Of a stretch of 64,000 nt of DNA, positions 21,407 through 56,478 are shown piece after piece (position 1 is the first letter of the stretch; each line of letters begins with the position of its first letter). Below the pieces are notes generated by a model, which did not search any database, was not told the origin of the DNA, and saw only the letters and a program-made list of their open reading frames with translations. Source of the DNA: Nitrospirota bacterium (GTDB taxonomy: Bacteria > Nitrospirota > UBA9217); NCBI GenBank assembly GCA_963737155.1, contig CAVTRN010000001.1:320001-384000 (forward strand), given 5' to 3'. Position numbers and translations under genes: made by a program.

Positions 21407-23185
21407 TTACCCTTTTTTAATCGCTTTGAATTTGCATGTTTCAAAACAGGCGCCACACTTGATGCAAATGTCCTGAATGATCTTATGCGGCTTCTTCTTT
21501 TCACCAACGATAGCGCCGGCGGGGCAGACACGAGTACAGGCGGTGCAGCCCTTGCAGAACTCTTCAACAATGCTGTAGGAAAGAAGGTCCTTGCATACGC
21601 CCGCCGGACAGCGCTTTTCATAGATATGTGCCTCGTATTCGTCTCGATAATACCTGATCGTGGAGAGCACCGGATTGGGCGCGGACTGCCCCAAACCGCA
21701 GAGCGATGACGTCTTGACGTCGCTGCTCAACGTCTCCAGGAGCTCGATATCGCTTTCCCTGCCGTGGCCTTCGGTGATCCTCGTCAGGATCTCAAGGAGC
21801 CGTTTGGTGCCGACCCGGCAAGGCACGCATTTTCCGCACGATTCCGATTGGGTGAACTGAAGGAAGTACTTGGCAACATTCACCATGCAGTCTGTTTCGT
21901 CCAGGACGACCATGCCGCCCGAGCCCATAATGGAGCCGACCTTGCCGAGCGATTCATAATCAAGTGTCGTGTCGATGATACTTGCGGGAATGCACCCGCC
22001 GGACGGACCGCCGGTCTGAACAGCCTTGAGCTTCCGACCGCCTTCGATGCCACCGCCGATATCGTAGATGACCTCTCTGAGGGGAATGCCCATGGGCACT
22101 TCGATCAGGCCCGAGTTCTGGATCTTGCCGGTCAGGGCGAAAACCTTGGTACCCTTGCTCTTCTCCGTGCCCATAGCGGCATACCAATCAGCACCTTTGC
22201 GGATAATGTAGGGGATGTTCGCGAGCGTCTCAACATTGTTGATGATCGTGGGTTTTCCCCAGAGCCCCTTCTGAACCGGAAACGGCGGCTTCGCCCGGGG
22301 CTGCCCGCGCTTGCCTTCGATCGAGGCGATAAGCGCCGTCTCTTCTCCGCAGACAAAGGCACCAGCCCCGAGCTTCACCTTGATGGTGAAATCAAACCCT
22401 TTGCCAAGGACGTTCTTGCCGAGGAATCCGTGCTCTTTCGCCTGCTTGATGGCGAGGTGCAGACGCTCGACGGCGAGCGGGTATTCCGCCCTGATATATA
22501 CATAGCCGTAGGGAGCGCCGATGGCATAGGCGCCGATGATCATCCCCTCGATCACCGCATGGGGATTCCCTTCGACAACCGAACGGTCCATGAACGCTCC
22601 GGGGTCACCCTCGTCGGCATTGCAAATGAGATACTTGGTCGGCCCGGGCGCTTTGATCGCCATATCCCATTTCACCCCGGTGGGAAATCCCGCACCGCCG
22701 CGGCCCCGGAGTCCTGAAGCCTTGATAGTCTCAATGACTTCTTGCGGGGCCATTGATTGAAGAACCTTCTTCGTCGCTTCGTAGCCGCCGCGGCCGATAT
22801 AGGAATCGATTTCCTCGGGATTGACCTCACCGCAGTCCGAAAGCACCACTTTAACCTGCTTGTTGTGAAATGTGTGGTAGTCATCCTTCACGAGCCAGTC
22901 ACCGACGGGCGTGCTGCTCATGATATGCTCGCTCACAATCCGCTCAACCATGTCCGGCTTGATGTACTGGTAGGTCGTCTTCTCGCCGTTAATAATTACA
23001 TCCACGAGCACGTCGCGGGCGCAAAACCCCCGGCAGCCGACTTTATGAACCGAGCAGTTTTTCTCTACCAAAGCATGGATACCCTCGGCCGCAAGGGCCT
23101 TTTCAAAGGCGGAGAGAACCTCCACGCCGCCGGCGGCGATGCCGCCCGTACCCATGCATACTTTTATAGAGATGTCTTTATTCAT
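21407..23185 (-). CDS. NuoF/HydB-like NADH-binding FMN subunit
   Basis: GRGGAGFP, NADEGDPGAFMD, GGPSGG, SCGKCVPCRVG, C-terminal 2x[4Fe-4S]. Confidence 0.93.
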   Translation of the reverse strand: MNKDISIKVCMGTGGIAAGGVEVLSAFEKALAAEGIHALVEKNCSVHKVGCRGFCARDVLVDVIINGEKTTYQYIKPDMVERIVSEHIMSSTPVGDWLVKDDYHTFHNKQVKVVLSDCGEVNPEEIDSYIGRGGYEATKKVLQSMAPQEVIETIKASGLRGRGGAGFPTGVKWDMAIKAPGPTKYLICNADEGDPGAFMDRSVVEGNPHAVIEGMIIGAYAIGAPYGYVYIRAEYPLAVERLHLAIKQAKEHGFLGKNVLGKGFDFTIKVKLGAGAFVCGEETALIASIEGKRGQPRAKPPFPVQKGLWGKPTIINNVETLANIPYIIRKGADWYAAMGTEKSKGTKVFALTGKIQNSGLIEVPMGIPLREVIYDIGGGIEGGRKLKAVQTGGPSGGCIPASIIDTTLDYESLGKVGSIMGSGGMVVLDETDCMVNVAKYFLQFTQSESCGKCVPCRVGTKRLLEILTRITEGHGRESDIELLETLSSDVKTSSLCGLGQSAPNPVLSTIRYYRDEYEAHIYEKRCPAGVCKDLLSYSIVEEFCKGCTACTRVCPAGAIVGEKKKPHKIIQDICIKCGACFETCKFKAIKKG

Positions 23186-23253: not shown

Positions 23254-23736
23254 TTAAATATAGTCGATGTATTCCCGCTTCCCCTCTTTGAGTGTCTTCA
23301 TCTCTTTCATGAGCTTGTCGGGCGTCATCTTGCCGTGCACGGTCTTATTGATGATGATAACCGGGGCGATGCTGCAAGCGCCTACACAGTTAACTTTCTC
23401 TACGGTGAACTTGAGATCTTCGGAGGTATTTTCGCCGTCGGGAATGGCCAGTTCTTTTACCAAGCTGTTGATCAGCCGTTCCGATCCCTTCACGTGGCAC
23501 GCCGTGCCGCAGCATGCGGTAATCACGTTCTTGCCTTTGGGCTTGAGATGAAATTGTGCGTAGAAGGTGGCGACACCGTAGAACTTCGCCGGCGGAATAT
23601 CGAGCCGTTCAGATACCCAGTTGATCGCGTCCTCCCGCAAGTAGCCGAATTCGGTTTCGATGTCCTGCAGGATCGAGATAATGTTGCCCTCGTTTTCCCG
23701 GTGTCGAGTGAGTATTCCCTCAAGTCTATCTTCCAT
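23254..23736 (-). CDS. NuoE/HydC-like [2Fe-2S] subunit
   Basis: VATFYAQF, CCGTACHVKG, CVGACSIAP. Confidence 0.93.
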   Translation of the reverse strand: MEDRLEGILTRHRENEGNIISILQDIETEFGYLREDAINWVSERLDIPPAKFYGVATFYAQFHLKPKGKNVITACCGTACHVKGSERLINSLVKELAIPDGENTSEDLKFTVEKVNCVGACSIAPVIIINKTVHGKMTPDKLMKEMKTLKEGKREYIDYI

Positions 23737-31392: not shown

Positions 31393-32975
31393 GAGCCTGT
31401 TGCTCAAATGCCAGCATAGCCGTTTATGATCGCCCATATGGGATAGTGCCAGACTGCAAATGGGGTATCTCTGCGAAGCACACGGCATGAATCAGCTGTC
31501 GTTTTCGTTCTTTATACTGCCATCTGGGCCGCAATCTCTTTGCCGCTTCGCCAAAGCTTCAAGAGATTGTGCGTCGCGCAGATGAGTTTCCATTCCTGGG
31601 AGCAGGCTTCAATCCCTCGGCGCATGTAGTGCCGGATGCCGCGATTGTCTTTAATCTGGCCAAAGATCGGTTCGACGGTCTGGCCTCGTTTCTTATAAAG
31701 CTCTCTGCCCCGCTTGGTCAGGAGCTTCCTCTCCATCCTCTGCCGGAGTGTCAGGCTTTTTGGTATCCTCCCTTGGGGCGGGGATGATGCGGCGGCCTCT
31801 TTACGTTGCTTCCAGTCTTTCTTGGTTGCGATAAGATGTTCGGGACCGTCGGGAGTGATGGCCGCAAAGTTCTTCTCACTTGCGTAGCCGGCATCGCTCA
31901 GAGATATTTCGATCTTCAGTTCTTTTTGCAGGGCGATCTCGTTTAAGTTCTCCTGGGCCTTCTGGATCATGGGATGCAGCTGGTTGATGTCGTTTTCCTG
32001 GTTCGTGACCTCGGCGGCGATGATGATCTGCTCCTTGGTGACCACGGCCTGGCTGTTGTAGCCCTGAACATATCCGCTTCGGGTTTTCATGATCCTGCTG
32101 TCCGGATCAGTCATATTGGCCTTCGCTTCCGACGATGGCGTCGGATCAGGCTCCTGAGGTTTGCGGCCCCGTTTCTTGCTGCCGGTTTCAGCCTCTTGGG
32201 CCTGTCGTTCTTCGATCTTTGACTGTTGCTCGGCTGCTGCCTCTGCAGCCTGTTCTTCCAACCGCTTTTTGCACGCGGCAAGGCGGGCTCTGCGGCTGGT
32301 TCGGTCGGCAAGTTCATCAGGAAGTTCGTCGCCCCGTTTGTTTTGGCCGTACTGCCGGTCTTCCTCGGTGTCCTTGGCCTCCGCTTCATCGAGCATCCTC
32401 TTCACTTCCTGCTCGATATGTTCGTACGTGCGGTTGGCTTCCAGGGCTGCGTTAGCCTTTATCTTGCTCCCGTCAAGGGCCACGATGCCGACTTTGACGA
32501 GCCCGGCTTCCTTGCAGAGCTTGAGCATCTGTTTGAACAGCCCCTCCAGTGCCTGGCCGTTGTCCTTCCGAAATCGGCTGATGGTGCAGTGGTCCGGAAC
32601 TTGGTTGGCGGCAATTACCTTGAATCCGATGTCCCGTTCGCAAAGCTTCTCGATCTCACGGGATGATCGGATACCGAGGCTGTAGGCATATAACAGCAGG
32701 GAGACCATCATTGACGGCTCAAAAGCTGCCTGGCCTTTTCCGTCCTGACGGTATTTTCGGTAGAATGCCGTAAGATCCATTTCTGCCACGACGTCAAGGA
32801 CCATCCAAACAAGGTCCTTGGATGGCAGCCACTCCTGCAAGGTGGGCGGCATGAGATATACTTGATCTCGGTTACAGTCTTTGAAATTGTAGGCCATCCA
32901 GCGTCTCCTTATATGCGTGATGACCAATACTATACTATTCGTATATTAATGTCAAATGATTTATGCAACAGGCTC
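31393..32975 (-). mobile_element. Complete IS1182-family insertion sequence (1583 bp)
   Basis: 17-bp TIR GAGCCTGTTGC(TC/AT)AAAT, 15/17 match; 4-bp TSD TTGA at 31389-31392 and 32976-32979. Confidence 0.92.
31512..32897 (-). CDS. IS1182-family transposase
   Basis: PDHCTISRFR, ALDGSKIKANA, TDPDSRIM, DAGY, VEPIFGQIK. Confidence 0.95.
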   Translation of the reverse strand: MAYNFKDCNRDQVYLMPPTLQEWLPSKDLVWMVLDVVAEMDLTAFYRKYRQDGKGQAAFEPSMMVSLLLYAYSLGIRSSREIEKLCERDIGFKVIAANQVPDHCTISRFRKDNGQALEGLFKQMLKLCKEAGLVKVGIVALDGSKIKANAALEANRTYEHIEQEVKRMLDEAEAKDTEEDRQYGQNKRGDELPDELADRTSRRARLAACKKRLEEQAAEAAAEQQSKIEERQAQEAETGSKKRGRKPQEPDPTPSSEAKANMTDPDSRIMKTRSGYVQGYNSQAVVTKEQIIIAAEVTNQENDINQLHPMIQKAQENLNEIALQKELKIEISLSDAGYASEKNFAAITPDGPEHLIATKKDWKQRKEAAASSPPQGRIPKSLTLRQRMERKLLTKRGRELYKKRGQTVEPIFGQIKDNRGIRHYMRRGIEACSQEWKLICATHNLLKLWRSGKEIAAQMAV

Positions 32976-33508: not shown

Positions 33509-34309
33509 TTATTTAAAACTTTGATCTGCGGAGGGGAATTTGCCGCTTTCGACATCCTGCTTGTATTCGTTTACTGCCGAGAGTGCCAGCTGTTTGAGAT
33601 TAGCGTATTTCTTGACAAATTTAGGCGTAAACCGGTCGAACAAACCTAAAAGATCGTGGATAACGAGAACCTGGCCGTCGCAGTCCGGCCCTGCGCCGAT
33701 CCCTATAGTGGGTATGTGAAGCATTGCCTGAATCTCTTTCGCCAGTGAGGACGGCATAGCCTCGAGCACAACAGAAAATGCCCCCGCATCCTGAACCGCC
33801 CTGGCGTCTGCAAGTATCTTTTCCCGGGCTGCCTCGCCTTTTCCCTGGACTTTGAACCCGCCAAGCATATGGACATACTGGGGTGTCAGGCCTATATGCG
33901 CCATGACCGGAATGCCGGCTTGCACAATCGCACGGATGGCATCGGCCATTTGCGTCCCGCCTTCAAGTTTCACCGCCTCGGCGCCGGCCTCTTTCAAAAA
34001 CCGTCCCGCATTATTCACCGCATTGGCCATGCTCAACTGGTAAGAGAGAAAGGGCATGTCACCGACGACCATGGCGGAAGCAGCGGCACGGGACACCATT
34101 TTTGTATGATAGAGCATTTCCTCCATAGTGACTGGAAGCGTACTCGTCATCCCCTGCACAACCATGCCGAGCGAATCCCCAACCAGAATCATGTCGATTG
34201 CGGCTTGGTCCACGATCTGGGCTGTGGGAAAATCGTATGCCGTGAGCATAGTGATTTTCTTGCCTTCGGCTTTCTTTTTATAAATATCGAGGATGGTTGT
34301 TTTCGGCAT
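33509..34309 (-). CDS. panB: 3-methyl-2-oxobutanoate hydroxymethyltransferase
   Basis: LTAYD, LVGDSLG, KLEGG, HIGLTPQ, IGIGAG. Confidence 0.98.
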
Positions 34310-34408: not shown

Positions 34409-35380
34409 TTACACCTGTGGTCGTGGATACAGCCCAGCGGCTTTCACAATCCCTTCGATGGCGCTCTCCCACTCGATGGCCTGGATATGAACACCCTTAA
34501 CGCCCGGAGTTTCCAATGCCTGGTGAATAAGCTCTATGGCGATTTTGATGCCTTCCTGCTCCTGCAGTTCGCGCATCTTCTTCTTATCCTCGCCGGCTGC
34601 CGCTTTGGCCTTGTTCATACGGTCGATCAGCTCTTTGGGGACCGACACCCCGGCAACCGAGGAATCCATATACTTGAGCATCATGGCGCTTTTCGGCACA
34701 ATGATGCCTGCAAGGATCGAGGTCCGCTCATGGAGGCCCATGTTCCGGATTTTCGCCATCTGCTCGCGGAAGAGAGTCATATCGTAGATGCCCTGTGTCT
34801 GGATGAAATCAGCTCCGGCATTCACTTTTTTAAGAAGATTGATCGGCCGGAAATCAATGGGGTCGGCCATGGGCGTCCAGGACGCTCCTACAAAAAATTT
34901 CGGGGCTACTTCCAGAGGGTCGCCGCCCTCCTGCTTGCCCTCATCACGCATCTTCTTGAGAATGCCGACGAGCTGGCACGTATCGACATCATAGACATTC
35001 TTCGCCCCGGGATGGCCTTTCAGTCTACCGGCCGAGCTGAACTTCTGGTGGTCGCCGGCGAGGCAAAGACAATTCTTGAGCCCGAGCGCAGCAGCGCCGA
35101 GGAGGTCTGCCTGCATGGCGATGCGGTTCCGGTCACGGCAGGTCATCTGGATCACCGGCTCCAGCCCCTGCTGGAACGCGATGGCGCCGGCAGCGATGCT
35201 CGAAATTCGTACAACCGCAGTCTGGCAGTCCGTAATATTCGCCGCGTCGCAAAAACCCTTGAGCATCTGAGCTTTTTTCACCACTTCATGAGGATCGGCG
35301 CTCATGGGAGGCCCAAGCTCAGCAGTGACCGCGGGTTTGCCGCTGGCGATTACTTTTTCAAGATTGCTTCCGCTTTTCAT
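34409..35380 (-). CDS. metF: Methylenetetrahydrofolate reductase
   Basis: QMTCRDRNRIAMQ, GADFIQTQ. Confidence 0.93.
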   Translation of the reverse strand: MKSGSNLEKVIASGKPAVTAELGPPMSADPHEVVKKAQMLKGFCDAANITDCQTAVVRISSIAAGAIAFQQGLEPVIQMTCRDRNRIAMQADLLGAAALGLKNCLCLAGDHQKFSSAGRLKGHPGAKNVYDVDTCQLVGILKKMRDEGKQEGGDPLEVAPKFFVGASWTPMADPIDFRPINLLKKVNAGADFIQTQGIYDMTLFREQMAKIRNMGLHERTSILAGIIVPKSAMMLKYMDSSVAGVSVPKELIDRMNKAKAAAGEDKKKMRELQEQEGIKIAIELIHQALETPGVKGVHIQAIEWESAIEGIVKAAGLYPRPQV

Positions 35381-35526
35381 TCTTTCTTCCCTCCAAAAGG
35401 TCTATCCTAAGAGGACTATGGACCGCTTCTTCATTCACGCTAACGCCGGAAGTCGGCGTCTCGAGGCAGACCCGGAATGACGGGCTGGATAGACATATGG
35501 ACATCCTCTGCCGAACAATTTCTTCA

Positions 35527-36228
35527 CTACTTCCCGGACTTGTCCGCTTCCTTCTCTTCGAACTCCCGTATATGCTCCATGGATATGCGGCGCGGTCCGC
35601 CGTCGCGCGACGTGGACCAGTTCCTTGGCGGCTGGATTTCGGTGAGTCTCTCAAGAGTACCGAGCATCTTCATGCGCTCGACGATCAGGTACCAAACGCA
35701 GTCGATCTCGTTGCTGACTTCGCACTTCCCCTTGTTCGTGCCACCGCAGGGACCGTTCATAAGTGTCTTCGAGCAACGCGCAATGGGGCAGAGGCCGCCG
35801 GTAAGATGCAGGATGCAGTTGCCGCAGCCGGCACAGAGTTCTTTGAAGACGCCGGGCGCTTCTACCGCTCCGTAGAACGAGGTATTGATGCCCGGATAGA
35901 CCGGAATCGTTCCGGTTCGGTCGGACAGAAAATTCACCCCGACCCCGCAGGCCGTTGAGAGAATGAGGTCGTACTTCCTGACCTCATCCATGACTGGCTC
36001 GAAGTACTCGGGCTCGCAGTGGCGCATCACGCCGAGGTGGTTCACCTCCATAGCCTTCCCCTCCTGCGATGCCTTGATTCTGATGAGGGAAGCGATGGTC
36101 TCGGCCTCCTTCTCGCCGCCTGCATGGCAGATGGCCACGCAGGTGTTGCACCCGAATACGAGAACCTTTTTAAAGTCCTTGACCATGGTCCAGATTTCGT
36201 CAATCGGTTTCTGTGATCCTACGATCAT
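35527..36228 (-). CDS. metV: Methylene-THF reductase C-terminal-domain (MetV) subunit
   Basis: CAGCGNC, CPIARCSK, NGPCGG, CEV, CVW; adjacent to metF. Confidence 0.92.
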   Translation of the reverse strand: MIVGSQKPIDEIWTMVKDFKKVLVFGCNTCVAICHAGGEKEAETIASLIRIKASQEGKAMEVNHLGVMRHCEPEYFEPVMDEVRKYDLILSTACGVGVNFLSDRTGTIPVYPGINTSFYGAVEAPGVFKELCAGCGNCILHLTGGLCPIARCSKTLMNGPCGGTNKGKCEVSNEIDCVWYLIVERMKMLGTLERLTEIQPPRNWSTSRDGGPRRISMEHIREFEEKEADKSGK

Positions 36229-36288
36229 AATTCATTACTCCTTCTATAGCGAACTCAAAAATATTATCGCCCTGAAACCGTCCCCGTC

Positions 36289-38382
36289 TTACTTCGTCCT
36301 TAACCCGATTTTCTTCACACGTTCGGAAAAATCTGCGCAAACCGCTGCATAGGAATTCCCGCCATTGTTAGATGCGGAAAGGATCTCGAGACGGCCCGGT
36401 TCGATCGACAGCATGCCGAGCAGTCCCTGAACTCTTTTCACCCTGGCATTCACACGCGGAGCAATGTCCCGATACTTGCATGTTCCGTCATTACAGCGCA
36501 CAATTACCACGCCATCGGCACCGGCTTCAAAGGCTTTCAGCATATCCAGAATATCAATTCTGCTGGTGCAATGCACCGGCACAATCTTCATGTTCGTCGG
36601 CAAATCGAAGCCGAGGATACCGGCGTGATTTGTGCACAGGAGCGCGACAATAACCGGCTCCCGGCGGCTCTCGTCAACCTTTCCGATGCTTGCCGAAAGC
36701 GAGTTCCTGATCTCGCGAACATCATAGCTCACCATGCTGATCGCTTGGGCAGGGCATTCCGGAGCGCAGAGACCGCAGGCCTGGCAGTACTCGGGACGGA
36801 TTTCGGAGTAGGCCTGCACCACCGGCGCGCCGTAGGGGCAAACACGCATACAAGTAAGACAAGCCATACATTTGTTCTTGTCCACGACTGCTCCGCCGCC
36901 GCAGCCGCGGCACCGGCCGGCTTCCTCGAGGGCCTCTTGCTCGGTAAAGCCCTCTTCAAAATGGTCCATGGTTTTAACGCGGACTTCGGGAGCGAGATGT
37001 TTGATCTTGAGCCGTGGCAGCTTGTCGATCTTTTCAACGACGTCGGCCGGCATTGGGGCGATCTTTTCCTTTTCCTGCGTCGGAAGCTTGCCCTCAATTG
37101 ACTCTCCCTGAAGATGGAGATGAATGGCAAGGGCCGAGCGGTGGCCGTTCGCGACAGCTGCAATGGCCGATCCCGGACCGGTAACGACTTCGCCAGCTAC
37201 GAACACGTTCCTGGCGCTGCTCATCTGGGTCGCGGGATTCCACTCAATGCGGCCCCGTTCGTCGACCTTCACGGCGCTGTTTTTCAAGAACGAGAGGTTC
37301 GACATCTGGCCGATCGTGATGATGATTGTATCAGCTTCGAGCAGCATCGTAATATTCGTATCAAAGGTCGGTGCGAACCGCTTGTTCGCATCAAAGACCG
37401 ACACGACCTTCGTGACTTCAAGGCCCTTTACCCGGTCGCCTTCGCGAATAACCGCCTTGGGCCCCCAGCGATAATTGATCTTGATAGCCTCTTCAACAGC
37501 CTCGTCAACTTCCCATTTCCAGGCCGGAATCTCCTGCTCGTTTTCGAGGCAGACCATCTCGACGTTCTGCACGCCGAGCCTGCGGGCCGATCGGGCAACG
37601 TCCATGGCAACGTTTCCGCCGCCAATGACAAGCACTCTCCCACCCAGGGTCGGCTTGCGGTTGAACGCTACGTCTTCGAGGAAAGGAATCGCGAGCAGCA
37701 CTCCGGGTCCCTGCTCTCCGGGAATATTCAAGGCCCGGCTCTGGGACAGACCGATGGCGATCAGCACGGCATCATGTTTTTTCGTAAGGTCGTCAAGCTT
37801 TGCATCCCTGCCGACCTCGAAGTTTGTTTTTACTTCGACGCCTTTTGAAACAACATCGTTGATGTCTTCATTCAAAACTTCCCTCGGAAGCCGGTAGGGC
37901 GGGATCGCGGAAGCGAGCATGCCGCCGAGCATGGGATGACGCTCATAGATCGTGACGCTGTAGCCGAAATCGGCGAGGTCCCGGGCCGCGGTCAGGCCCG
38001 AAGGCCCTGAACCGATGATTCCGATACTTTTGCCCTTCGTTTTCGCGATGAGTCTGCGCTTGGCGCGGCGATAGTCCCTAGATTTCTCTATGGCGAACCG
38101 CTTCAGATGGCGGACCGCCAGGGGCTCGTCGATGCCGCAACGCCTGCAGGACTGCTCGCAGGGATGGTGGCAGATCATGGAGCAGACCGAAGCAATGGGG
38201 TTTACTGACGTGATGACTTCGAACGCTTCAGTATATTTGCCCTTGGCGATCAGTGCCACATAAGCCTGCACATCCGTATGCGCCGGACATGCGGCCCGGC
38301 ACGGCGAATAAGGCCTTGTTTCCTTGATATCGGCGCCATAAGGACGATAGGGTTCAAGAGTGCATATAGTTTCCAATGCCAT
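36289..38382 (-). CDS. NfnB/GltD-like flavoprotein fused to 2x[4Fe-4S] ferredoxin and MvhD-like domain (697 aa)
   Basis: PCRAACPAH, CHHPCEQSC, GSGPSG, GGGNVA, CMACLTC..CP, CQACGLC..CP, HCTSRID...GADGV..C..GTCKY; AGGAG RBS. Confidence 0.88.
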   Translation of the reverse strand: MALETICTLEPYRPYGADIKETRPYSPCRAACPAHTDVQAYVALIAKGKYTEAFEVITSVNPIASVCSMICHHPCEQSCRRCGIDEPLAVRHLKRFAIEKSRDYRRAKRRLIAKTKGKSIGIIGSGPSGLTAARDLADFGYSVTIYERHPMLGGMLASAIPPYRLPREVLNEDINDVVSKGVEVKTNFEVGRDAKLDDLTKKHDAVLIAIGLSQSRALNIPGEQGPGVLLAIPFLEDVAFNRKPTLGGRVLVIGGGNVAMDVARSARRLGVQNVEMVCLENEQEIPAWKWEVDEAVEEAIKINYRWGPKAVIREGDRVKGLEVTKVVSVFDANKRFAPTFDTNITMLLEADTIIITIGQMSNLSFLKNSAVKVDERGRIEWNPATQMSSARNVFVAGEVVTGPGSAIAAVANGHRSALAIHLHLQGESIEGKLPTQEKEKIAPMPADVVEKIDKLPRLKIKHLAPEVRVKTMDHFEEGFTEQEALEEAGRCRGCGGGAVVDKNKCMACLTCMRVCPYGAPVVQAYSEIRPEYCQACGLCAPECPAQAISMVSYDVREIRNSLSASIGKVDESRREPVIVALLCTNHAGILGFDLPTNMKIVPVHCTSRIDILDMLKAFEAGADGVVIVRCNDGTCKYRDIAPRVNARVKRVQGLLGMLSIEPGRLEILSASNNGGNSYAAVCADFSERVKKIGLRTK

Positions 38383-38522: not shown

Positions 38523-39086
38523 TTATTCTTTTTTCGTTAAAAGTTCCAGCATCTCCATGCGCGTCGATTCCTTGGTGCGGAAGCTGCCGCGCACAGCGGA
38601 AGTGACCACCCGAGAGCCGGGCTTTTTAACGCCGCGCATGCTCATGCAAAGGTGCTCGGCGTCGATTACCACCATGGCGCCTTTCGGCTTGAGGTGTTCA
38701 ACAATCAGGTCGATGAACTGGGTCGTTAGTCGTTCCTGTACCTGCGGTCTCTTGGCAAAAACCTCCAGGGCTTTTGCCAGAGAACTGATGCCGACGATCT
38801 TCCCGGCGCCCGGGATGTAAGCGATATGTGCCCTGCCAAAAAACGGCAGTAGATGGTGTTCGCACACGGAATAAAAAGGGATATCGCGAATCATCACCAT
38901 CTCATCGTGGGTCTCCCCAGCCATGGGTGCGAGAAGCTTTTCCGTATCCATCGAAATCCCGGAGAAAATCTCCCCGTACATCTCGGCCACACGCTGGGGC
39001 GTGCTCATAAGCCCCGGCCTGTCAGGATTTTCACCGATTCCTTCTATGATGAGACGGACGCCTTTTTCGATTTTCTTAATATCCAT
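38523..39086 (-). CDS. folE: GTP cyclohydrolase I
   Basis: [25 protein letters not shown]. Confidence 0.97.
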
Positions 39087-39141: not shown

Positions 39142-39699
39142 TTATTTTCCTTGAGCTCTGATGACCCGTTTTTCGGTTATTATTTTTTGCATTGGAACAT
39201 CGTGGCTATCAACGGGTATTTCATCCACGATCTGCGCTTCGAAGGCCAGCGCCACAGTAGCTTTCCCAAAAGCAGGAAGAAGCTTGTCGTAATACCCTGC
39301 GCCGTAGCCAAGCCGGTTGCCCCTCTTGTCGAAAGCAGCTCCGGGTATAATCATGAGATCGATATCTGTCAGCGAGGCGGGCATGATAGACTTTGGCTCC
39401 GGAATTCCCCACGTACCGGACTCCACATCGTTGTCGAAATCGCGTATCTCATAGAGGGCAAGCTCACTACCCTGAACTTTCGGGAGGACCACGCGCTTAC
39501 CCGATTGCAAAACCCGGCGGATCATCGGGCCGGTTTCTACTTCGCTCCGGAATGATGCAAAAAACATGACGACCCGCGCTGACAGGAATTCAGGAAGGGA
39601 AAAAAGCCGCTCTGCGATCTCCCGGCTTTTCGCCGTTCTGTCTATCGGTGAGAGACAGTCGCGAGCCGATAAAACCTGTTTACGAAGGATCTTTTTCAA
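39142..39699 (-). CDS. 5-formyltetrahydrofolate cyclo-ligase
   Basis: [20 protein letters not shown]; TTG start. Confidence 0.94.
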
Positions 39700-39808: not shown

Positions 39809-40600
39809 TTAATGCTTCACTGTATTTGCGAGCATTTGATCAAGGTCAGCCTTGATTTTCTTTGCCTCTTCCACGGCGAGAGGCGAGGCATCGTATGGCG
39901 ACCTGCCATCCAGATCGGCCCTAACCGTATCATCGGCATAACTCATGAACCCGAGGACCTTCATGCCTGCAAGGTGTTCCGTTATGAACTCTTTGTCCGA
40001 TTCCTGTTTGATCTTGTTACCGACGACAAAAACATCCTTGATGCCTAACCCTCTGGCCAGGTTTTCAACGTGCCGCGCGGTCTGGAGGCTCCGCTGGCCT
40101 GGCTCGACTACGACAATGAAGGCATTCACGCCGCTCGCCGTGCCTCGCGTCAGATGCTCGATGCCGGCCTCCATGTCGAGGATGACCAGTTCATCGCGCC
40201 GCAGAATCAAATGGCTCACGAGACGTCGCAACAAAACATGTTCGGGGCAATAACAGCCAGCGGCGGCCTCTTTGGATTTTCCCATGATAAGAAGCCGCAC
40301 ACCTTCGTGCTGTACTCCATACGCCTCGGGAATATCATCCACTTTCGGATTGATCGTGAACAGGCCCCCGGGAGCTCCGGGGCGTGAGCCCGTACGCTCC
40401 TCGATCATGTCCGACTGCTCAGCGAGCGGCAGAACCCGCGCCGCAACCTCGGGTGATATGCCGAGCGCCGATGCAAGATTCGCGTCCGGATCGGCATCTA
40501 CAGCAAGAACCTTTTTGCCTTCCGATGCATAAATTCTCGCTAAGAGGCCGGAAAGAGTAGTTTTACCCACCCCGCCCTTGCCCGTAATCGCAATTTTCAA
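39809..40600 (-). CDS. cooC: CooC-type CODH nickel-insertion ATPase
   Basis: GKGGVGKT, DADPDANL, GCYCPE, DMEAGIEHL; TTG start after GGGAG. Confidence 0.9.
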   Translation of the reverse strand: MKIAITGKGGVGKTTLSGLLARIYASEGKKVLAVDADPDANLASALGISPEVAARVLPLAEQSDMIEERTGSRPGAPGGLFTINPKVDDIPEAYGVQHEGVRLLIMGKSKEAAAGCYCPEHVLLRRLVSHLILRRDELVILDMEAGIEHLTRGTASGVNAFIVVVEPGQRSLQTARHVENLARGLGIKDVFVVGNKIKQESDKEFITEHLAGMKVLGFMSYADDTVRADLDGRSPYDASPLAVEEAKKIKADLDQMLANTVKH

Positions 40601-40806
40601 GCAACTCTCCCAAAAAATCTTTATGCAAAATAACATCTCTTAAGCGAGAGTGTCAAGGCTTTTTTGTTTGGAACAGACTGCAGCTGATGTACTTTATCGA
40701 ACGCCGGCAAAAAAATCCGGAATAACCTTGGTCAGGGTCGCCTTATTTTGCAATTTTATGATTTTATTAAAGATATTGGCGAAATGTCCGATAAATAATA
40801 TACCAT

Positions 40807-46957: not shown

Positions 46958-48034
46958 TCAGCTCTCCACGTTTTTCGGGTTACAGCGCGACTGTATCTCC
47001 GCCGCCATTTTGCCGAGTGGAAGCGCCTTGTCGACGGCTCCCGTCCGCATGGCCTCTTGTGGCATTCCGAAGATCACCGCGCTTTCCTCACTCTCGGCAA
47101 GGCATTGACCTCCTCTCCGCTTCATGGCCACGACACCCTCGGCTCCATCCCTGCCCATTCCCGTCAACACGATTCCGAGTGCCATTGGGCCGCAGGCTTC
47201 GGCAACGGATATCATCATGCGGTCGGCCGATGGCGTATAGATGTCCTCGGCGGTGGGGGAAAGGATTCTGGCGACAAGGCCCTTCTGGTCCCGCCTGATC
47301 TCAAGATGCAATCCGCCCGGGGCGATCAGCGCCGTTCCCGCCTCCACGCGGTCGCCTTCGGCTGCTTCGCGCACCATGAGTGCCGAAAGCTTGTTCAAGC
47401 GCTCGGCAAAACTCCGCGTAAACCCCGCCGGCATGTGCTGGGCTATAACAATGCCCGCGCTGAGGTCCGCGGGAATGCGGGTCAGAATCGCTTGGAGAGC
47501 GGGCGGTCCGCCCGTAGAAGAAGCTATGGCGACAATCTCTATCGGCCCCTGATCCCGTCTTACCTCGTCTTCTTTGCGGGCGACGGGCACCGCATGCTCC
47601 TGGGACAGCAGGTCGATCGTCGACTTGACTTTCGACATTTTAAGATTGAGTACCAGATGGACCTTATGCAACAGGCCGTCTCTGACGGTTTCAATGCTCC
47701 GGGAGATGCGCGATTCGGGTTTGGCCAGAAACTCCACGGCCCCGAGCTCAAGGGCACGGAAGACGCTTCGGCTATCGGACCGCGAGGAAAGGACGATAAC
47801 TGGAGTTGGACGCTCCCTCATGAGCCAACGCAAAAAGGTGAAGCCGTCCATATTTGGCATCTCAAGGTCAAGTGTGATCACCTGCGGCGAAAGCCGAAGT
47901 GTCTGGGCAATGGCGTCGAGACCATCAGTGGCGTTGCCCACGACCTCGATCGCTTTATCGCTCTCCAGCATATGGGTGATCACTGAGCGGTTGTAGGCGG
48001 AGTCGTCAACCACCAGCGCTTTTATCTTATCCAT
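46958..48034 (-). CDS. cheB: Chemotaxis methylesterase with REC domain
   Basis: REC plus ASSTGGP, QHMP, LTGMGRDG. Confidence 0.96.
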   Translation of the reverse strand: MDKIKALVVDDSAYNRSVITHMLESDKAIEVVGNATDGLDAIAQTLRLSPQVITLDLEMPNMDGFTFLRWLMRERPTPVIVLSSRSDSRSVFRALELGAVEFLAKPESRISRSIETVRDGLLHKVHLVLNLKMSKVKSTIDLLSQEHAVPVARKEDEVRRDQGPIEIVAIASSTGGPPALQAILTRIPADLSAGIVIAQHMPAGFTRSFAERLNKLSALMVREAAEGDRVEAGTALIAPGGLHLEIRRDQKGLVARILSPTAEDIYTPSADRMMISVAEACGPMALGIVLTGMGRDGAEGVVAMKRRGGQCLAESEESAVIFGMPQEAMRTGAVDKALPLGKMAAEIQSRCNPKNVES

Positions 48035-48063
48035 AAGTCCTCTGCGCCCCGTGCGGGCCGCCG

Positions 48064-48927
48064 CTAGCTGATTTTGCTCCGGAACGGTTTCTGGTAGACC
48101 ATGTCGTTCTTTAGCGTACGCAACACAAATGCGTTCGATATGTTGATCAGGGATTCGGAATGTCCCAAGAGCAGGTAGCCGCCCTCCCGTAGCTTGTGGT
48201 AAAAGCTCTCGATCACCTTTTTCTTTGCTTCATGGTCGAAATAGATGATCACGTTCCGGCAGAAAACCGTGTCCATGTTGCTGATCAGACTCGTTTTGAA
48301 TGGGTCGAGCAGGTTCAGGCAGCTGAACGATACCAGCTCCTTGACCTTGTCGATGATCCGGTAGTCTCCCTTCTCGTCGCACGCGAAATACTTTGACAGC
48401 ATTTCGGGGCTGGTTGCGCGAAAGGCGCTCTTTTTGTACACACCTTTGCGCGCTGTGTGCAGCACCCGCTGGTTGATGTCGCTGCCGAGAATCTCGACCT
48501 GCCATTCGCGCCACCAGTCTCCGGATTCAAGCAGCAGCATGGCGATGGTGTACGGCTCTTCACCGGTGGAACAGCCGGCGCTCCAGATCCGGAGCACTTT
48601 TCGGTCAGCAAGCGCGTGGCGCAGCTCGGGAAGGATTTCTGAAGAGAAGGCCTTGAGTTGGGGGCTCTCGCGGAAGAAATACGTTTCGTTCGTGGTGAGA
48701 TTGTCGATAAGGATAACAAGCTCTTCTTCGCGTTTTCGATCATACTTCAGGAAGTGATAATACTCCTCGAAAGTTTTCAGTCGGTGCTGATCAAGTCGGC
48801 GAGAAAGCCTGCGCTCCAGAAGGTATTTTGATCCCTCATCAAAATAGATCCCGCAGTAGTCGTGAATGAAGTCCCGGAGAAGTCTGAAGACGTCATCGGG
48901 CAGCGGAATAATCTGCTCTTCGAACAT
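48064..48927 (-). CDS. cheR: Chemotaxis methyltransferase
   Basis: TTNETYFFRE, WSAGCSTGEEPY, CRNVIIYF, GHSESL. Confidence 0.96.
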   Translation of the reverse strand: MFEEQIIPLPDDVFRLLRDFIHDYCGIYFDEGSKYLLERRLSRRLDQHRLKTFEEYYHFLKYDRKREEELVILIDNLTTNETYFFRESPQLKAFSSEILPELRHALADRKVLRIWSAGCSTGEEPYTIAMLLLESGDWWREWQVEILGSDINQRVLHTARKGVYKKSAFRATSPEMLSKYFACDEKGDYRIIDKVKELVSFSCLNLLDPFKTSLISNMDTVFCRNVIIYFDHEAKKKVIESFYHKLREGGYLLLGHSESLINISNAFVLRTLKNDMVYQKPFRSKIS

Positions 48928-50916
48928 TTATCTCCCCAGGACCTCTCTGGATGCCTGACGCACGGTCATGTCCGGGTCTTCATCGGCCATCTTTGCCAGA
49001 ACCGCATCGGCCGCAGCCGATCGCTGCCGCCTCAGCGCTTCAACAGCCGTTTTGCGCACGCTCCAGTGGGGGTCCGACAAACGCGCAATAACAGCCTCCT
49101 GAACAGACTCGCCATATCCAGCCAGTGCCATGAGTACCATCTTCCGTACTTCTGGATCAGGATGATCAGCGAGCTTCAGGAGCGGCTCCCGAGCCTTCGA
49201 AGGACTGAGTCTGCCCAGCACATCCACAATTGCCAGGAGAAATATATCGGTTGCAGTCTCAAGATGTGCGACCAGTGTGTCGACCGCCTGTTCTCCTCCT
49301 ATTTCACCGAGCCCCCGGGTTGCTGCGGCTCGGACCCAGATATCTCTGTCATTGAGAAGCGGAAGCAGTGCGGTCCAGGCCCCGGCAGTCCTGCTTCTGC
49401 CCAGTGCCTCTGCCGCGAGCATTCTCACCTCGGGGTCGTCGTCGGTAATCGCGAGCAGCAGCGGGCGCAATGCTTTTTCTCCAGCCACGTCGGCCAAGGC
49501 CTGAACAACGGCTTTTCTCACGGAAGATTCCTCGTCTTTGAGTGCAAAGGCCAGCGCATCAATCGACCGTTCGTTCGAAAAAGCTCCAAGCAGGAGCGCT
49601 ATGTTCCTTCTAATAAATGTATCGCGCGTCGAAAAATCATGGACAAGACGGTCCAGCACTGACTCGTCTCCAATAGCGGCCAGAGCCTGGATGGCTGATT
49701 TCTGAACGCTTTCATATTCATCAGCCAGGAGCGCGAGCAGTGGTACTGATGCTTTTCTGCTTCGCAGGCGGCCGAGAGCGAGCGCGGCTGTGCTCCGCAC
49801 GTGACCGTTTTCATCATTCAACAAAGTGATCAGCGGTTCTTCCGCAGCCCGTGCGCCAAGATCTCCAAGAACCTGTGCAACCGTTCGGCGGACAAGTGCA
49901 TTTTCATCGGGGATATATTTTAGCAGGAGCGCGGTTCCTGCGCGGTCGAGATATTGTAACGATTGAACAACGGGCTCCTCAAGCTCCTCCTCCGTCAGAA
50001 ATGCAAGAAGCTTTCGGATGGAACTTTCCCTGCTGGTCCAACCAAGGAGTGTGATCGTAGACTTCAGCAATTCACCGCTGCTCATGAGGAGGATTTCCTC
50101 CAGGAAATCCACGGCACGCTCCGTCATCCCGGCACGCACCGCGTCGACGATTTTCCGCCGATCAGTCGCTGTGCTCTTTCGGTAAATCGCGTCAATAGCA
50201 ACGATCGATACTTCTCGCACAATCCTGAGCGGATCAGCAAGGCCGCTGACCATCGGTCCGATCGTTTCGACGTTACCGATCCTGCCGAGCGATTCAAGAA
50301 CCGGCTCCCGGAGACTGCTCCGCGACAGAGCCATGAGGAGCGGTCCCAGCGCCCGTCTATCGCCGATGGCGCCCAGCGCCTCCGCCGCCGCATAATCAAG
50401 CCAGTTCTGGTGAGAACGGACAAGGCAGGCAAGCAGGGCATCGACGGCCCGCGGGTCCCGGATTTTGCCAAGGGCCTCTGCTGACGCCACCCGGACGTTC
50501 TCGTCATCATCGGCTAGCATGTTGATGAGCACAGGAACGGCGCGGGAATCCATGATAACGCCCAGAATATCGACTACAAACTTTCGTACATCGGGATCGG
50601 GTGTTTCCACGGACCGAAGCAGGCTATCGACAGCTGGCCCTCCGATGTGAATGAGAGCCTCAATGGCTGAGTTGCGCATACCAGCATTTTCGGGAGCGTT
50701 GAGCGCGTGCAGTAGCCCATCAATAACGTGCAATCCCCCGAACGACACCAGCGCCTCAACAGCAGTCTTCCGCACCCGCCAATCGGCATCTTCCATGGCG
50801 CGGAAGAGCAGGGGCACTGCTTCGGCCCCTAGACGACCCAAATCGACCGCCGCTTCTCGACGCTCTTCGGCATCGCTGCTTCCGAGTTTGTTCCCTAGCT
50901 GCTCAATATTCGGCAT
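48928..50916 (-). CDS. HEAT/PBS-lyase repeat protein
   Basis: Many D..VR..A..ALG repeats over 662 aa. Confidence 0.92.
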   Translation of the reverse strand: MPNIEQLGNKLGSSDAEERREAAVDLGRLGAEAVPLLFRAMEDADWRVRKTAVEALVSFGGLHVIDGLLHALNAPENAGMRNSAIEALIHIGGPAVDSLLRSVETPDPDVRKFVVDILGVIMDSRAVPVLINMLADDDENVRVASAEALGKIRDPRAVDALLACLVRSHQNWLDYAAAEALGAIGDRRALGPLLMALSRSSLREPVLESLGRIGNVETIGPMVSGLADPLRIVREVSIVAIDAIYRKSTATDRRKIVDAVRAGMTERAVDFLEEILLMSSGELLKSTITLLGWTSRESSIRKLLAFLTEEELEEPVVQSLQYLDRAGTALLLKYIPDENALVRRTVAQVLGDLGARAAEEPLITLLNDENGHVRSTAALALGRLRSRKASVPLLALLADEYESVQKSAIQALAAIGDESVLDRLVHDFSTRDTFIRRNIALLLGAFSNERSIDALAFALKDEESSVRKAVVQALADVAGEKALRPLLLAITDDDPEVRMLAAEALGRSRTAGAWTALLPLLNDRDIWVRAAATRGLGEIGGEQAVDTLVAHLETATDIFLLAIVDVLGRLSPSKAREPLLKLADHPDPEVRKMVLMALAGYGESVQEAVIARLSDPHWSVRKTAVEALRRQRSAAADAVLAKMADEDPDMTVRQASREVLGR

Positions 50917-51442: not shown

Positions 51443-51467
51443 GAGCCTTGCCCCGAACCCCAGTCTT

Positions 51468-56386: not shown

Positions 56387-56478
56387 CGCTGCCTCCCGAG
56401 ACAAGAGAATATTGGATTCCGGGCCAAAGCTTTTTCTTCAGGCCCGGATCTGAGCCTCTGTGTTCCAACTCCCGATTT

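What the first reader, a model, noticed from the sequence alone, without database searches (positions are those of the whole stretch)
34409..38382. Candidate distinct methylene-THF reductase: one NfnB-like/ferredoxin/MvhD fusion directly upstream of metV-metF
Seen: a 697-aa protein with an NfnB/GltD FeS-FAD-NAD(P) core, two [4Fe-4S] motifs and an MvhD-like tail with four Cys (LLC, HCTSR, VRC, GTCKY), ending 60 bp before metV. Known: MetVF partners are HdrCBA-MvhD (Moorella, Sporomusa) or RnfC2 (Acetobacterium). Seen: no hdrABC or rnfC2 in this cluster, and CLE follows the second Rossmann motif where the paralogue at 14619 has the NADPH-type YRR. Inference: a compact three-subunit, probably NADH-linked MTHFR in which one chain replaces Hdr/RnfC2. 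Electron bifurcation is possible but unproven.
Basis: partly seen in the sequence, partly recalled or inferred. Interest (0 to 1): 0.8.

Follow-up and report, generated by a model that had tools for sequence, protein, structure and literature searches.

The report
Fused NADH module beside MetVF reductase
One iron-sulfur flavoprotein sits where close relatives carry a four-protein heterodisulfide-reductase module, next to the folate-reducing enzyme of the Wood-Ljungdahl pathway, and probably feeds it electrons from NADH, a subunit layout outside the four described types.

Summary
A 697-aa protein (36289-38382, minus strand) joins a GltD/NfnB-like FAD/NAD(P)H module, a 2x[4Fe-4S] ferredoxin domain and an MvhD (FlpD) domain with four conserved Cys. 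It ends 60 bp before metV-metF, inside a Nitrospirota Wood-Ljungdahl cluster with no hdrABC or rnfC.

The linkage is not chance. metV follows the fusion in 69 of 76 judgeable related loci. A separate clade at 34-38% identity is also next to metV. In sister genomes the same slot (folE ... metV-metF-panB) holds hdrC-hdrB-hdrA-mvhD, of either the Moorella or the Sporomusa kind.

The GltD module is circularly permuted, as in StnC/NfnABC. It carries CLE where NADPH-specific relatives carry YRR.

Best reading: an Hdr-less, NADH-linked, probably non-bifurcating three-subunit MetVF methylene-THF reductase. A predicted fusion-MetV complex gave only weak support (0.53, best control 0.00).

Caveats:
- In one genus the fusion lies away from metVF.
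- Distant family members pair with hydrogenases.
- There is no expression or biochemical data.

Seven literature searches found no description of it. Earlier notes of this scan report the same layout on other DNA, in other phyla. Verdict: new variant of a known kind.

The parts
36289..38382 (-). Fusion gene, 697 aa: permuted GltD/NfnB-like FAD/NAD(P)H module + 2x[4Fe-4S] ferredoxin domain + MvhD domain
38074..38307 (-). Residues 26-103: GltD-type FeS region (Fer4_20, profile positions 30-110 only). Invariant C28, C32, C71, C75, E76, C79; C67 conserved in at least 90%
37144..38025 (-). [quoted passage not shown]
   Evidence: aligns to NfnB, StnC and GltD structures
37543..37551 (-). Residues 278-280, CLE, at the position of the NADPH-phosphate-binding YRR of NfnB. 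Predicted NADH preference
   Evidence: YRR role from PMC7596348 (passages)
36901..37008 (-). Residues 459-494: segment homologous to the N-terminus of NfnB (…EEA.RCxxC), relocated behind the flavin domains. Invariant C491 and C494 supply the 'missing' CxxC of the distal [4Fe-4S] cluster
   Evidence: HMMER aligns T. maritima NfnB 7-42 here and 43-462 to residues 24-427
36733..36891 (-). Residues 498-550: 2x[4Fe-4S] ferredoxin domain (C505/508/511/515 and C533/536/539/543, all invariant), like the C-terminal ferredoxin domain of HdrA
36304..36633 (-). Residues 584-693: MvhD/FlpD domain with four conserved Cys (C583, C605, C630, C635) for a [2Fe-2S] cluster
   Evidence: (MvhD chains 7bkb_F, 5odc_D)
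35527..36228 (-). metV (233 aa, PF12225/DUF5981). Starts 60 bp after the fusion's stop, with an AAGGAG ribosome-binding site
34409..35380 (-). metF (323 aa, PF02219), the acetogen-type MetF. A second, canonical metF lies on contig 2
38523..40636 (-). Upstream genes of the same strand block: folE (38523-39086), 5-formyl-THF cyclo-ligase (39142-39699), cooC-type ATPase (39809-40636)
   Evidence: same order in related loci
33509..34309 (-). panB, directly downstream of metF. Marks the conserved slot folE ... metV-metF-panB

Best explanation
The 697-aa protein is the pyridine-nucleotide-linked electron-input subunit of a three-subunit MetVF-type methylene-THF reductase. The enzyme has no HdrABC and no RnfC2.

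Proposed path: NADH gives a hydride to the FAD of the permuted GltD-like module. Single electrons then run along one wire: proximal [4Fe-4S], then distal [4Fe-4S] (ligated partly by C491/C494), then the two [4Fe-4S] of the ferredoxin domain that follows directly in sequence, then the MvhD [2Fe-2S], then the FeS clusters of MetV, then the flavin of MetF, then methylene-THF.

The reaction would be non-bifurcating NADH:methylene-THF oxidoreduction. It is functionally like the RnfC2-MetVF enzyme, but is built from the NADH module, the C-terminal ferredoxin domain and the MvhD of the Moorella-type Hdr enzyme.

What is shown: the domains, ligands, synteny and same-locus replacement. What is inferred: complex formation, donor specificity, order of clusters and direction of electron flow.
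For: Domains and ligands.

Linkage to metV:
- metV lies downstream in 69 of 76 judgeable genome loci, and within 300 bp in 59.
- A separate clade at 34-38% identity is also next to metV, in all 9 loci fetched (in L100 and L104 metV was seen only).
- With my choice of start codons, the fusion's stop overlaps the metV start in 5 of 28 paired loci (L097, L098, L099, L101, L105).
- On a tree, metV-linked forms fall in at least 4 places.

Same-slot replacement:
- 3 of 3 examined genomes of the same family that lack the fusion (1 of them the same genus, G087) carry hdrC-hdrB-hdrA(1018-1080 aa)-mvhD-metV-metF between folE and panB.
- 3 of 3 others carry hdrC-hdrB-giant HdrA (1477-1492 aa, with a GltD insert)-mvhD-metV-metF.
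- The giant form matches the published Moorella HdrA (1487 aa, GltD domain, NADH:BV 190 U/mg). The smaller form matches the Sporomusa HdrA (101 kDa, 0.5 U/mg) (PMC9430772, passages).

Donor specificity: CLE is present in 21 of 21 clade-a sequences and in the 3 giant-HdrA inserts. YRR is present in the NADPH-binding StnC/NfnABC chains, the paralogue and 9 of 9 group-b sequences.

Single wire: the permuted module and the direct continuation into the ferredoxin domain match StnC, whose FAD is reported as non-bifurcating (PMC10482914, passages).

No alternative adaptor: the genome has only two FlpD domains, this one and one in a QmoB-like protein.

Predicted fusion+MetV complex: weak support, with a median score of 0.53 and a best control of 0.00.
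- The mark was reached by 58 of 80 solved complexes and 2 of 110 mismatched pairs.
- At 0.60 or under it was reached by only 7 of those 80, and by both mismatches that passed.
- The runs agree in at least 96% of contacts, and the partner's pLDDT is at least 87.
- No MetV structure exists in the PDB.
Against: No expression data and no biochemistry.

In one genus (g55, 64-67% identity) the fusion lies among housekeeping genes, while metVF sits elsewhere behind hdrCBA-mvhD. That covers 6 of the 7 loci without metV.

Distant family members stand alone (L117) or precede NiFe-hydrogenase subunits (L132, L152). The module is therefore not specific to MetVF.

In the window the genes are separated by 60 bp and 146 bp rather than overlapping.

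The second Rossmann motif is GxGxxA, which one paper (PMC12054007) reads as NADP-type.

Relatives (Ca. Sulfobium, PMC5812927) are proposed to run the pathway oxidatively. In that direction methyl-THF oxidation with NAD+ is uphill (E0' -200 mV against about -320 mV).

The complex score is in the band that the tool itself calls weak.
Confidence: 0.55

Rival explanations
1. Same three-subunit complex, but electron-bifurcating or confurcating. The NfnB-type FAD splits the NADH electron pair. One electron goes to MetVF and methylene-THF, the other to ferredoxin or another low-potential acceptor. In reverse, reduced ferredoxin helps push methyl-THF oxidation to NAD+.
For: The flavin module is homologous to NfnB, whose FAD bifurcates (PMC10482914 passages).

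The Arg of the YRLP motif, which in NfnB contacts flavin N5, is invariant here (R164).

The module replaces an Hdr module that is itself proposed to bifurcate (PMC8760232, PMC9430772).

An oxidative pathway direction in relatives (PMC5812927) would need an energetic push.
Against: No NfnA-like second branch is encoded beside it.

The closest solved relatives by sequence and fold are the permuted StnC/NfnABC subunits. There the same Arg is conserved, yet the FAD is reported as non-bifurcating (PMC10482914).

The sequence offers one continuous wire, not two.

All TrxR-like HdrA domains that carry the bifurcation signature in the Moorella and Sporomusa enzymes are absent (PMC9430772; one search shows that only the C-terminal part of HdrA2 matches).
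Confidence: 0.2
2. The fusion is not a subunit of the reductase. It would be a general NAD(P)H:FeS oxidoreductase, for example an FdhB-like partner of formate dehydrogenase, a ferredoxin:NAD oxidoreductase or an adaptor for another Hdr-like or Qmo system. On this reading it is merely co-located with C1 genes.
For: Source annotations call homologues 'formate dehydrogenase beta subunit' or 'glutamate synthase beta-like/F420-hydrogenase delta'.

g55 genomes keep the fusion away from metVF and have a full hdrCBA-mvhD-metVF set.

Other family members sit with hydrogenase genes or alone.
Against: Adjacency to metV is kept across 34-100% identity and in several clades, with overlapping stop and start codons in some loci.

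The g55 copies are nested inside the metV-linked clade, so their position looks secondary.

The window's formate dehydrogenase has its own NuoE/NuoF-like partners.

The fusion fills exactly the hdrCBA-mvhD slot.
Confidence: 0.17
3. The MvhD tail links MetVF to a membrane or quinone-linked system, as proposed for Sporomusa. The GltD module would act only as a side entry for NAD(P)H.
For: In S. ovata, MvhD was found mostly in membranes and was proposed as the membrane linker (PMC9430772, passages).
Against: Here MvhD is covalently fused to a soluble flavoprotein. No membrane protein is encoded in the block from cooC to panB. I did not run a transmembrane prediction.
Confidence: 0.05

Closest known systems
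Type IV (Hdr-type) methylene-THF reductase, HdrCBA-MvhD-MetVF of Moorella thermoacetica and Sporomusa ovata (Mock 2014, not read; Kremp 2022 PMC9430772 and Oppinger 2021 PMC8760232, passages read)
   Same: The MetV+MetF core and an MvhD-type [2Fe-2S] element are shared. The GltD-type NAD(P)H/FAD module is homologous (36-39% identity) to the insert of the giant Moorella-type HdrA found at the same locus in sister genomes, and it carries the same CLE motif. The fusion occupies the same genomic slot.
   Different: There are no HdrB (CCG), no HdrC and no TrxR-like HdrA domains. The MvhD is fused to the flavoprotein rather than being a separate, often stop-interrupted (possibly selenocysteine) gene. 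The total is three polypeptides instead of six.
Type III methylene-THF reductase, RnfC2-MetV-MetF of Acetobacterium woodii (as summarised in PMC8760232)
   Same: Three subunits. A dedicated NADH-oxidising flavo-FeS subunit is added to MetVF. The expected reaction is non-bifurcating NADH:methylene-THF.
   Different: The input subunit is unrelated: a GltD/NfnB fold with FAD, against an RnfC fold with FMN. The MvhD and HdrA-type ferredoxin domains have no counterpart in RnfC2.
StnC of StnABC (8oh5) and the NfnA chain of NfnABC (9bov, 9n5u)
   Same: These are the best sequence and fold matches. They share the circularly permuted GltD module, with the 'EA.RCxxC' segment placed after the flavin domains. 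That segment is followed directly by further FeS domains.
   Different: Those proteins continue into a NuoG-like domain and dock on a HydBC-like bifurcating module, and they carry YRR (NADPH). This protein continues into a ferredoxin domain plus MvhD, carries CLE, and lies beside metVF.
NfnB/NfnL of NfnAB (4ylf, 5jca) and GltD
   Same: Same fold for residues 24-427 (TM about 0.8 normalised to the target). Same FAD and FeS ligand set.
   Different: The order of segments is permuted. There is no NfnA partner gene and no YRR. There is an extra ferredoxin and MvhD half.
DsrL (PMC7596348, passages)
   Same: A GltD-like core, then a linker, then a C-terminal 2x[4Fe-4S] ferredoxin domain. NAD(H)- and NADP(H)-specific subtypes are told apart at the YRR position.
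   Different: DsrL has the normal, unpermuted N-terminal ferredoxin domain and no MvhD domain, and it works with DsrAB. This protein is linked to metVF.
HdrL of Desulfobacterium autotrophicum (PMC2702500) / type III HdrA with GltD insert (PMC12054007)
   Same: A GltD-type NADH module combined with Hdr-family parts and MvhD.
   Different: Those keep the HdrA flavin core and a separate MvhD. Here only the GltD module, the C-terminal ferredoxin domain and MvhD remain.

Membership tests
MetVF-type methylene-THF reductase core | MetF (PF02219) of the acetogen type, encoded next to MetV (PF12225) | tested here: met
   MetF 119.6 bits, MetV 120.8 bits. The two genes are adjacent on one strand. One search shows a separate canonical MetF (323 bits) elsewhere in the genome.
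MetVF-type methylene-THF reductase core | Catalyses methylene-THF reduction; MetF lacks its own NAD(P)H site | not testable with these tools
   Needs an enzyme assay.
Type IV (Hdr-type) MTHFR | hdrA (TrxR-like FAD core), hdrB (CCG) and hdrC encoded with metVF | tested here: not met
   no CCG, HdrC-type or HdrA-core protein between 14619 and 40636; the HdrA2 model matches only residues 496-694, at 140.7 bits against a cut-off of 1100.
Type IV (Hdr-type) MTHFR | MvhD-type [2Fe-2S] element encoded with metVF | tested here: met
   FlpD 86.6 bits, present as a fused domain; four Cys, each conserved in at least 90% of sequences.
Type III (RnfC2-type) MTHFR | RnfC-like NADH/FMN subunit next to metVF | tested here: not met
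   no RnfC-like domain in any cluster protein. The rest of the genome was not searched for rnfC.
NfnB of NfnAB | GltD fold with FAD, an NADPH site (YRR) and two [4Fe-4S] clusters in an N-terminal domain | tested here: not met
   The fold is met. But YRR is replaced by CLE, and the CxxC segment is relocated to residues 459-494.
NfnB of NfnAB | NfnA (PyrK-like) partner gene | tested here: not met
   none adjacent. In group-b loci the gene upstream of the fusion is folD, not nfnA.
Permuted GltD module of the StnC/NfnABC-A type | The 'EA.RCxxC' segment lies after the flavin domains, followed by further FeS domains | tested here: met
   alignments to 9bov_A, 9n5u_A and 8oh5_C; these are the top Foldseek matches.
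Permuted GltD module of the StnC/NfnABC-A type | NuoG-like domain and HydB/HydC-like partner subunits | tested here: not met
   no NuoG-type domains in the fusion. The NuoE/NuoF-like genes of the window lie 13 kb away, next to fdhA.
MvhD / FlpD (PF02662) | Profile match over the cut-off, with Cys ligands for [2Fe-2S] | tested here: met
   MvhD chains match at E 1.6e-11 to 3.8e-9.. The first Cys motif is reduced to a single Cys, with a 7-residue deletion relative to the distant homologues of alignment A1.
DsrL | Unpermuted N-terminal ferredoxin domain, no MvhD, gene from a dsrAB organism and functionally tied to DsrAB | tested here: not met
   the module is permuted and an MvhD tail is present. 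There are no dsr genes in the block. I did not search the genome for dsrAB.

The most novel reading that the evidence does not exclude
The three proteins form the smallest known flavin-based electron-bifurcating (or confurcating) methylene-THF reductase. A single NfnB-type FAD would couple NADH, methylene-THF and ferredoxin without any Hdr module. That would supply the long-sought energy-coupling mode of this step in a tractable three-subunit enzyme.
Probability: 0.2. Interest if true: 0.85.

Novelty: new variant of a known kind. Interest (0 to 1): 0.65.

Why it matters
The methylene-THF reductase step is the least settled part of Wood-Ljungdahl energetics. The physiological donor of type II MetVF enzymes is disputed, and the second acceptor of the Hdr-type enzyme is unknown (PMC8760232, PMC9430772).

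Here nature has cut the Hdr-type enzyme down to its NADH module, one ferredoxin domain and MvhD, all in one chain. That gives a simple system for three questions:
- Does MvhD dock on MetV?
- Is NADH alone sufficient?
- Is the Hdr part needed only for coupling?

The finding also matters for metabolic models of uncultured sulfate-reducing Nitrospirota of soils and aquifers. In the same genus, some genomes carry the Hdr form and others the fusion, so ATP and redox budgets would differ between close relatives.

It would also correct annotation. Sources currently call these proteins 'FAD-dependent oxidoreductase', 'formate dehydrogenase beta subunit' or 'glutamate synthase beta-like'.

Tried and rejected
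Expression: the look-up of sequencing runs listed no RNA holder. Only soil and peat DNA runs held at most 0.27 of the sampled words, so I laid no reads.

Literature: seven searches found no paper describing a GltD-ferredoxin-MvhD fusion with MetVF. I also read passages in PMC5736913, PMC7325909, PMC9012536, PMC10553843, PMC6305446 and PMC5812927, with the same result. Subscription papers and supplements are not covered. Table S2 of PMC5812927 (proteome of a relative) could hold peptides of the orthologue, but I could not see it.

Metagenome scan: the patterns were generic. Only 16 of 80 loci hit my MetV, MetF or MvhD-tail profiles, and 4 of them had metV+metF. This is not a census.

Rejected ideas:
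- That the ~290-aa gene upstream of the group-b fusions is NfnA or HdrB. It is folD.
- That the N-terminal FeS domain has lost a cluster. The ligands are relocated.
- That the ORF at 7133-8548 is a second copy of the IS1182 transposase. It is unrelated.

Limits:
- The structure tool returns no coordinates, so I could not measure cluster-to-cluster distances or the position of C491/C494.
- The search of earlier findings by place gave nothing.
- One search was read in the wrong frame and repeated.

Full report
**What is there.** The minus strand of the window carries a Wood-Ljungdahl block. In order it reads: cooC (39809-40636), 5-formyl-THF cyclo-ligase, folE (38523-39086), the gene in question (36289-38382), metV (35527-36228), metF (34409-35380) and panB. 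Then come an IS1182 transposase, a second cooC/acsF-like ATPase, a DUF2520 protein, acsE, acsD, acsC and acsB. The block ends with NuoE- and NuoF-like genes, a formate dehydrogenase and fhs. Source names of close homologues place the organism in the Nitrospirota. The genome is 4.84 Mb in 2 contigs.

**Start codon and domains.** The 697-aa start is supported by an AGGAG 7 nt upstream and by the length of the listed homologues (658-704 aa). Pfam finds Fer4_20 (26-103), Pyr_redox_2 (120-413), a Fer4 dicluster (498-550) and FlpD/MvhD (584-693, 86.6 bits against a cut-off of 22.3). NCBIfam places residues 496-694 on the C-terminal end of HdrA2. The fusion's stop is 60 bp from the metV ATG, which has an AAGGAG site. 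No strong terminator-like site lies between the three genes on that strand, which is weak evidence only.

**Cofactor sites.** In an alignment of 38 fusion-type sequences the invariant residues fall into three groups:
- C28, C32, C71, C75, E76 and C79
- C491 and C494
- C505/508/511/515 and C533/536/539/543

C67, C583, C605, C630 and C635 are conserved in at least 90% of sequences.

**A circular permutation.** The N-terminal FeS region matches only profile positions 30-110 of Fer4_20 and lacks the first CxxC pair that the paralogue at 14619 has. HMMER explains this. T. maritima NfnB residues 7-42 (ending RCLQC) align to fusion residues 459-494 (ending RCRGC), while NfnB 43-462 aligns to residues 24-427. 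The module is therefore circularly permuted. The same permutation is seen in the best PDB matches: 9bov_A and 9n5u_A (NfnABC) and 8oh5_C (StnC of StnABC). These are also the top Foldseek hits of a confident AlphaFold model, with pLDDT 89.3 and pTM 0.87. By the NfnB ligand assignment quoted in PMC7596348, C491/C494 would join C28 and C79 on the distal cluster. I could not check this in 3D, because no coordinates are returned. The predicted cofactor set is one FAD, four [4Fe-4S] and one [2Fe-2S].

**Nucleotide specificity.** After the second Rossmann motif the fusion reads CLE and the paralogue reads YRR. In NfnB the YRR residues hold the 2'-phosphate of NADPH. In DsrL the presence or absence of YRR tracks measured NADP(H) against NAD(H) use (PMC7596348, passages). 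CLE is present in all 21 clade-a sequences I aligned, in the two g55 copies, and in the GltD inserts of the three giant HdrA proteins next to metV. YRR is present in all 9 group-b fusions and in the NADPH-binding StnC/NfnABC chains. I therefore predict NADH for this protein and NADPH for group b. One contrary hint: the motif itself is GxGxxA, which PMC12054007 reads as NADP-type. The paralogue and the NADPH enzymes share that motif, so it does not discriminate here.

**Is the linkage to metVF conserved?** A scan of one genome per species returned 80 loci. Most are Nitrospirota; two are labelled Syntrophobacterales or delta proteobacterium.
- 76 loci have enough downstream sequence to judge. 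69 of them have metV downstream, and 59 have it within 300 bp.
- 4 loci were too short to judge.
- 7 loci lack metV. One of these has only 1.1 kb of flank. The other six are 64-65% identical copies.

In a sample of 401 Nitrospirota genomes, MetV occurs in 280. Matches to the fusion at E <= 1e-100 occur in 97, but these 97 mix four things: true orthologues, a second fusion group at 35-38% identity, giant HdrA proteins, and ~613-aa forms without the tail.

I fetched 20 of these places:
- All 9 group-b loci I aligned read folE-folD-fusion-metV-(DUF2520-purD)-metF.
- L105 (51% identity) reads folE-folD-fusion-metV-metF.
- With my start-codon choice, the fusion's stop overlaps the metV start in 5 of 28 paired loci.

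On a quick ML tree of the flavin module (58 rows), clade a (16 rows, support 99) and group b (9 rows, support 100) are far apart. Between them lie members from other contexts. metV linkage needs at least 4 changes on starred branches. The association is therefore old or repeatedly formed, not a single accident.

**Same-slot replacement.** Three genomes of the same family (one of the same genus) lack the fusion. All three have, between folE and panB, hdrC (200 aa), hdrB (291-298 aa; CCG shown for L110), an HdrA-like protein of 1018-1080 aa, mvhD, metV and metF (L110-L112). Three others have hdrC, hdrB, a 1477-1492-aa HdrA with a Fer4_20+Pyr_redox_2 insert, mvhD, metV and metF (L107-L109). Kremp et al. 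(PMC9430772, passages) describe exactly these two HdrA kinds:
- Moorella: 162.8 kDa, 1487 aa, with a GltD domain and NADH:benzyl viologen activity of 190 U/mg.
- Sporomusa: 101 kDa, no GltD domain, 0.5 U/mg.

They also report pull-downs linking MvhD and MetV to the other subunits. The fusion is 36-39% identical to the GltD insert of the giant form. In effect it is that insert, plus an HdrA-type C-terminal ferredoxin domain, plus MvhD, with HdrB, HdrC and every TrxR-like domain gone. The own genome has only two FlpD domains. The other is in a 768-aa open frame followed by a membrane protein. I read this as QmoB-QmoC from its layout alone and did not test it.

**Mechanism.** The most economical reading is a linear wire from NADH to methylene-THF through the fusion, MetV and MetF.
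- For it: in the closest solved relative, StnC, the same permuted module passes electrons one by one to downstream clusters, and its FAD is reported as non-bifurcating although the N5-facing Arg is conserved (PMC10482914, passages).
- For it: there is no NfnA-like second branch.
- For it: the domains that carry the bifurcation signature in the Hdr forms are missing.
- Against certainty: the module is an NfnB homologue with the invariant Arg (R164).
- Against certainty: relatives are proposed to oxidise acetate (PMC5812927), and in that direction NAD+ reduction by methyl-THF is uphill.

I put the linear model at 0.55, a bifurcating version at 0.2, and 'not a subunit' at 0.17.

**Test of binding.** A predicted complex of the full fusion with MetV, both given as alignments, gave 'weak support'.
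- Scores were 0.53, 0.55 and 0.46, with a best control of 0.00.
- The mark was reached by 58 of 80 solved complexes and 2 of 110 mismatched pairs.
- At 0.60 or under it was reached by only 7 of those 80, and by both mismatches that passed.
- The runs agree in at least 96% of contacts, and the partner's pLDDT is at least 87.
- No MetV structure is in the PDB, so the score is not from memory of a solved complex.

**Evidence against a dedicated role.** In genus g55 the fusion (64-67% identity) sits between argS and murI/rph/ftsH/folP-type genes. In the 4 of 5 g55 genomes where MetV was found, metVF lies elsewhere behind hdrC-hdrB-hdrA-mvhD. These copies are nested within the metV-linked clade, so relocation looks secondary, but their partner is open. 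Among metagenome loci found with distant fusions:
- L122 has fusion-metV-metF.
- L123 and L133 have giant HdrA-mvhD-metV-metF.
- L120 has a NuoF::GltD fusion before metV-metF.
- L117 has a fusion among unrelated genes.
- L132 and L152 have GltD-type proteins plus MvhD ahead of NiFe-hydrogenase subunits.

The module is thus a general NAD(P)H adaptor that has been tied to MetVF several times.

**Comparison with what is known.** Oppinger et al. (PMC8760232) define four MTHFR types: MetF alone; MetVF; RnfC2-MetVF; and HdrCBA-MvhD-MetVF. This one fits none of them. It works most like type III and is derived from type IV parts. Seven full-text searches found no description of it. Subscription journals and supplements were not visible. 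Earlier AI notes of this scan report the same fusion-metVF layout in other genomes: a planctomycete, an anammox bacterium, a Dehalococcoidia bacterium and others. One of those notes led me to check the giant HdrA against the Moorella description, which PMC9430772 confirms. These notes are not independent evidence.

**Verdict.** This is a real, conserved, apparently undescribed variant of a known enzyme kind. It is interesting to specialists because it isolates the NADH-MvhD-MetV connection in three polypeptides.

Noticed in passing
window 18731-21403 (-): The formate dehydrogenase catalytic subunit is split into two ORFs by an in-frame TGA at 20363-20365. Read as selenocysteine, it gives the motif HCARYUHSATV. 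The gene is followed upstream by NuoF-like (21407-23185) and NuoE-like (23254-23736) genes.
   Followed up: partly
window 31512-32927 (-): An IS1182-family transposase (318 bits, over its cut-off) is inserted in the Wood-Ljungdahl block, between panB and the second cooC/acsF-like gene. Related loci (e.g. L013) have no such gene there. The 471-aa ORF at 7133-8548 is not a second copy.
   Followed up: partly
window 14619-16055 (+): A stand-alone GltD/NfnB-like protein (478 aa). It has a full, unpermuted Fer4_20 domain and the NADPH-type YRR motif, lies next to fhs, and has no NfnA-like gene beside it. Its partner is unknown.
   Followed up: no
L108, L110-L116 (mvhD between hdrA and metV): In 8 of the 10 Hdr-type loci examined, the separate mvhD is interrupted by a single in-frame stop between profile positions 68 and 71. 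This suggests a selenocysteine MvhD. The codon was not read, and the fused MvhD of the window has Cys throughout.
   Followed up: partly
L093-L104 (group-b loci): A second fusion clade (645-678 aa, 34-38% identity) carries YRR instead of CLE. It lies in folE-folD-fusion-metV-(DUF2520-purD)-metF operons, which makes it a predicted NADPH-linked counterpart. Three of these loci (L097, L102, L103) hold a second metV-metF pair.
   Followed up: partly
L120:93-8105: A metagenome contig with fdhA, a 160-aa gene, a 1041-aa NuoE/NuoF::GltD fusion (CLE type), then metV-metF. This is another way of placing a GltD module before metVF.
   Followed up: no
L132:3825-10223 and L152:2005-6679: GltD-type proteins with a separate MvhD, followed by NiFe-hydrogenase small (Oxidored_q6) and large subunits. 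These look like NAD(P)-linked Mvh-type hydrogenases.
   Followed up: no
G000:C1:1338126-1341503 (L001): The only other FlpD domain of the genome is in a 768-aa HdrA-like/MvhD open frame, followed by a 386-aa membrane FeS protein. I read this as QmoB-QmoC from layout alone. It fits a sulfate-reducing lifestyle.
   Followed up: no
window 46958-58569 (-): A chemotaxis block: cheB, cheR, a 662-aa HEAT-repeat protein, cheW and three MCPs. One MCP (53591-56404) is fused to a phosphonate-type periplasmic binding domain.
   Followed up: no
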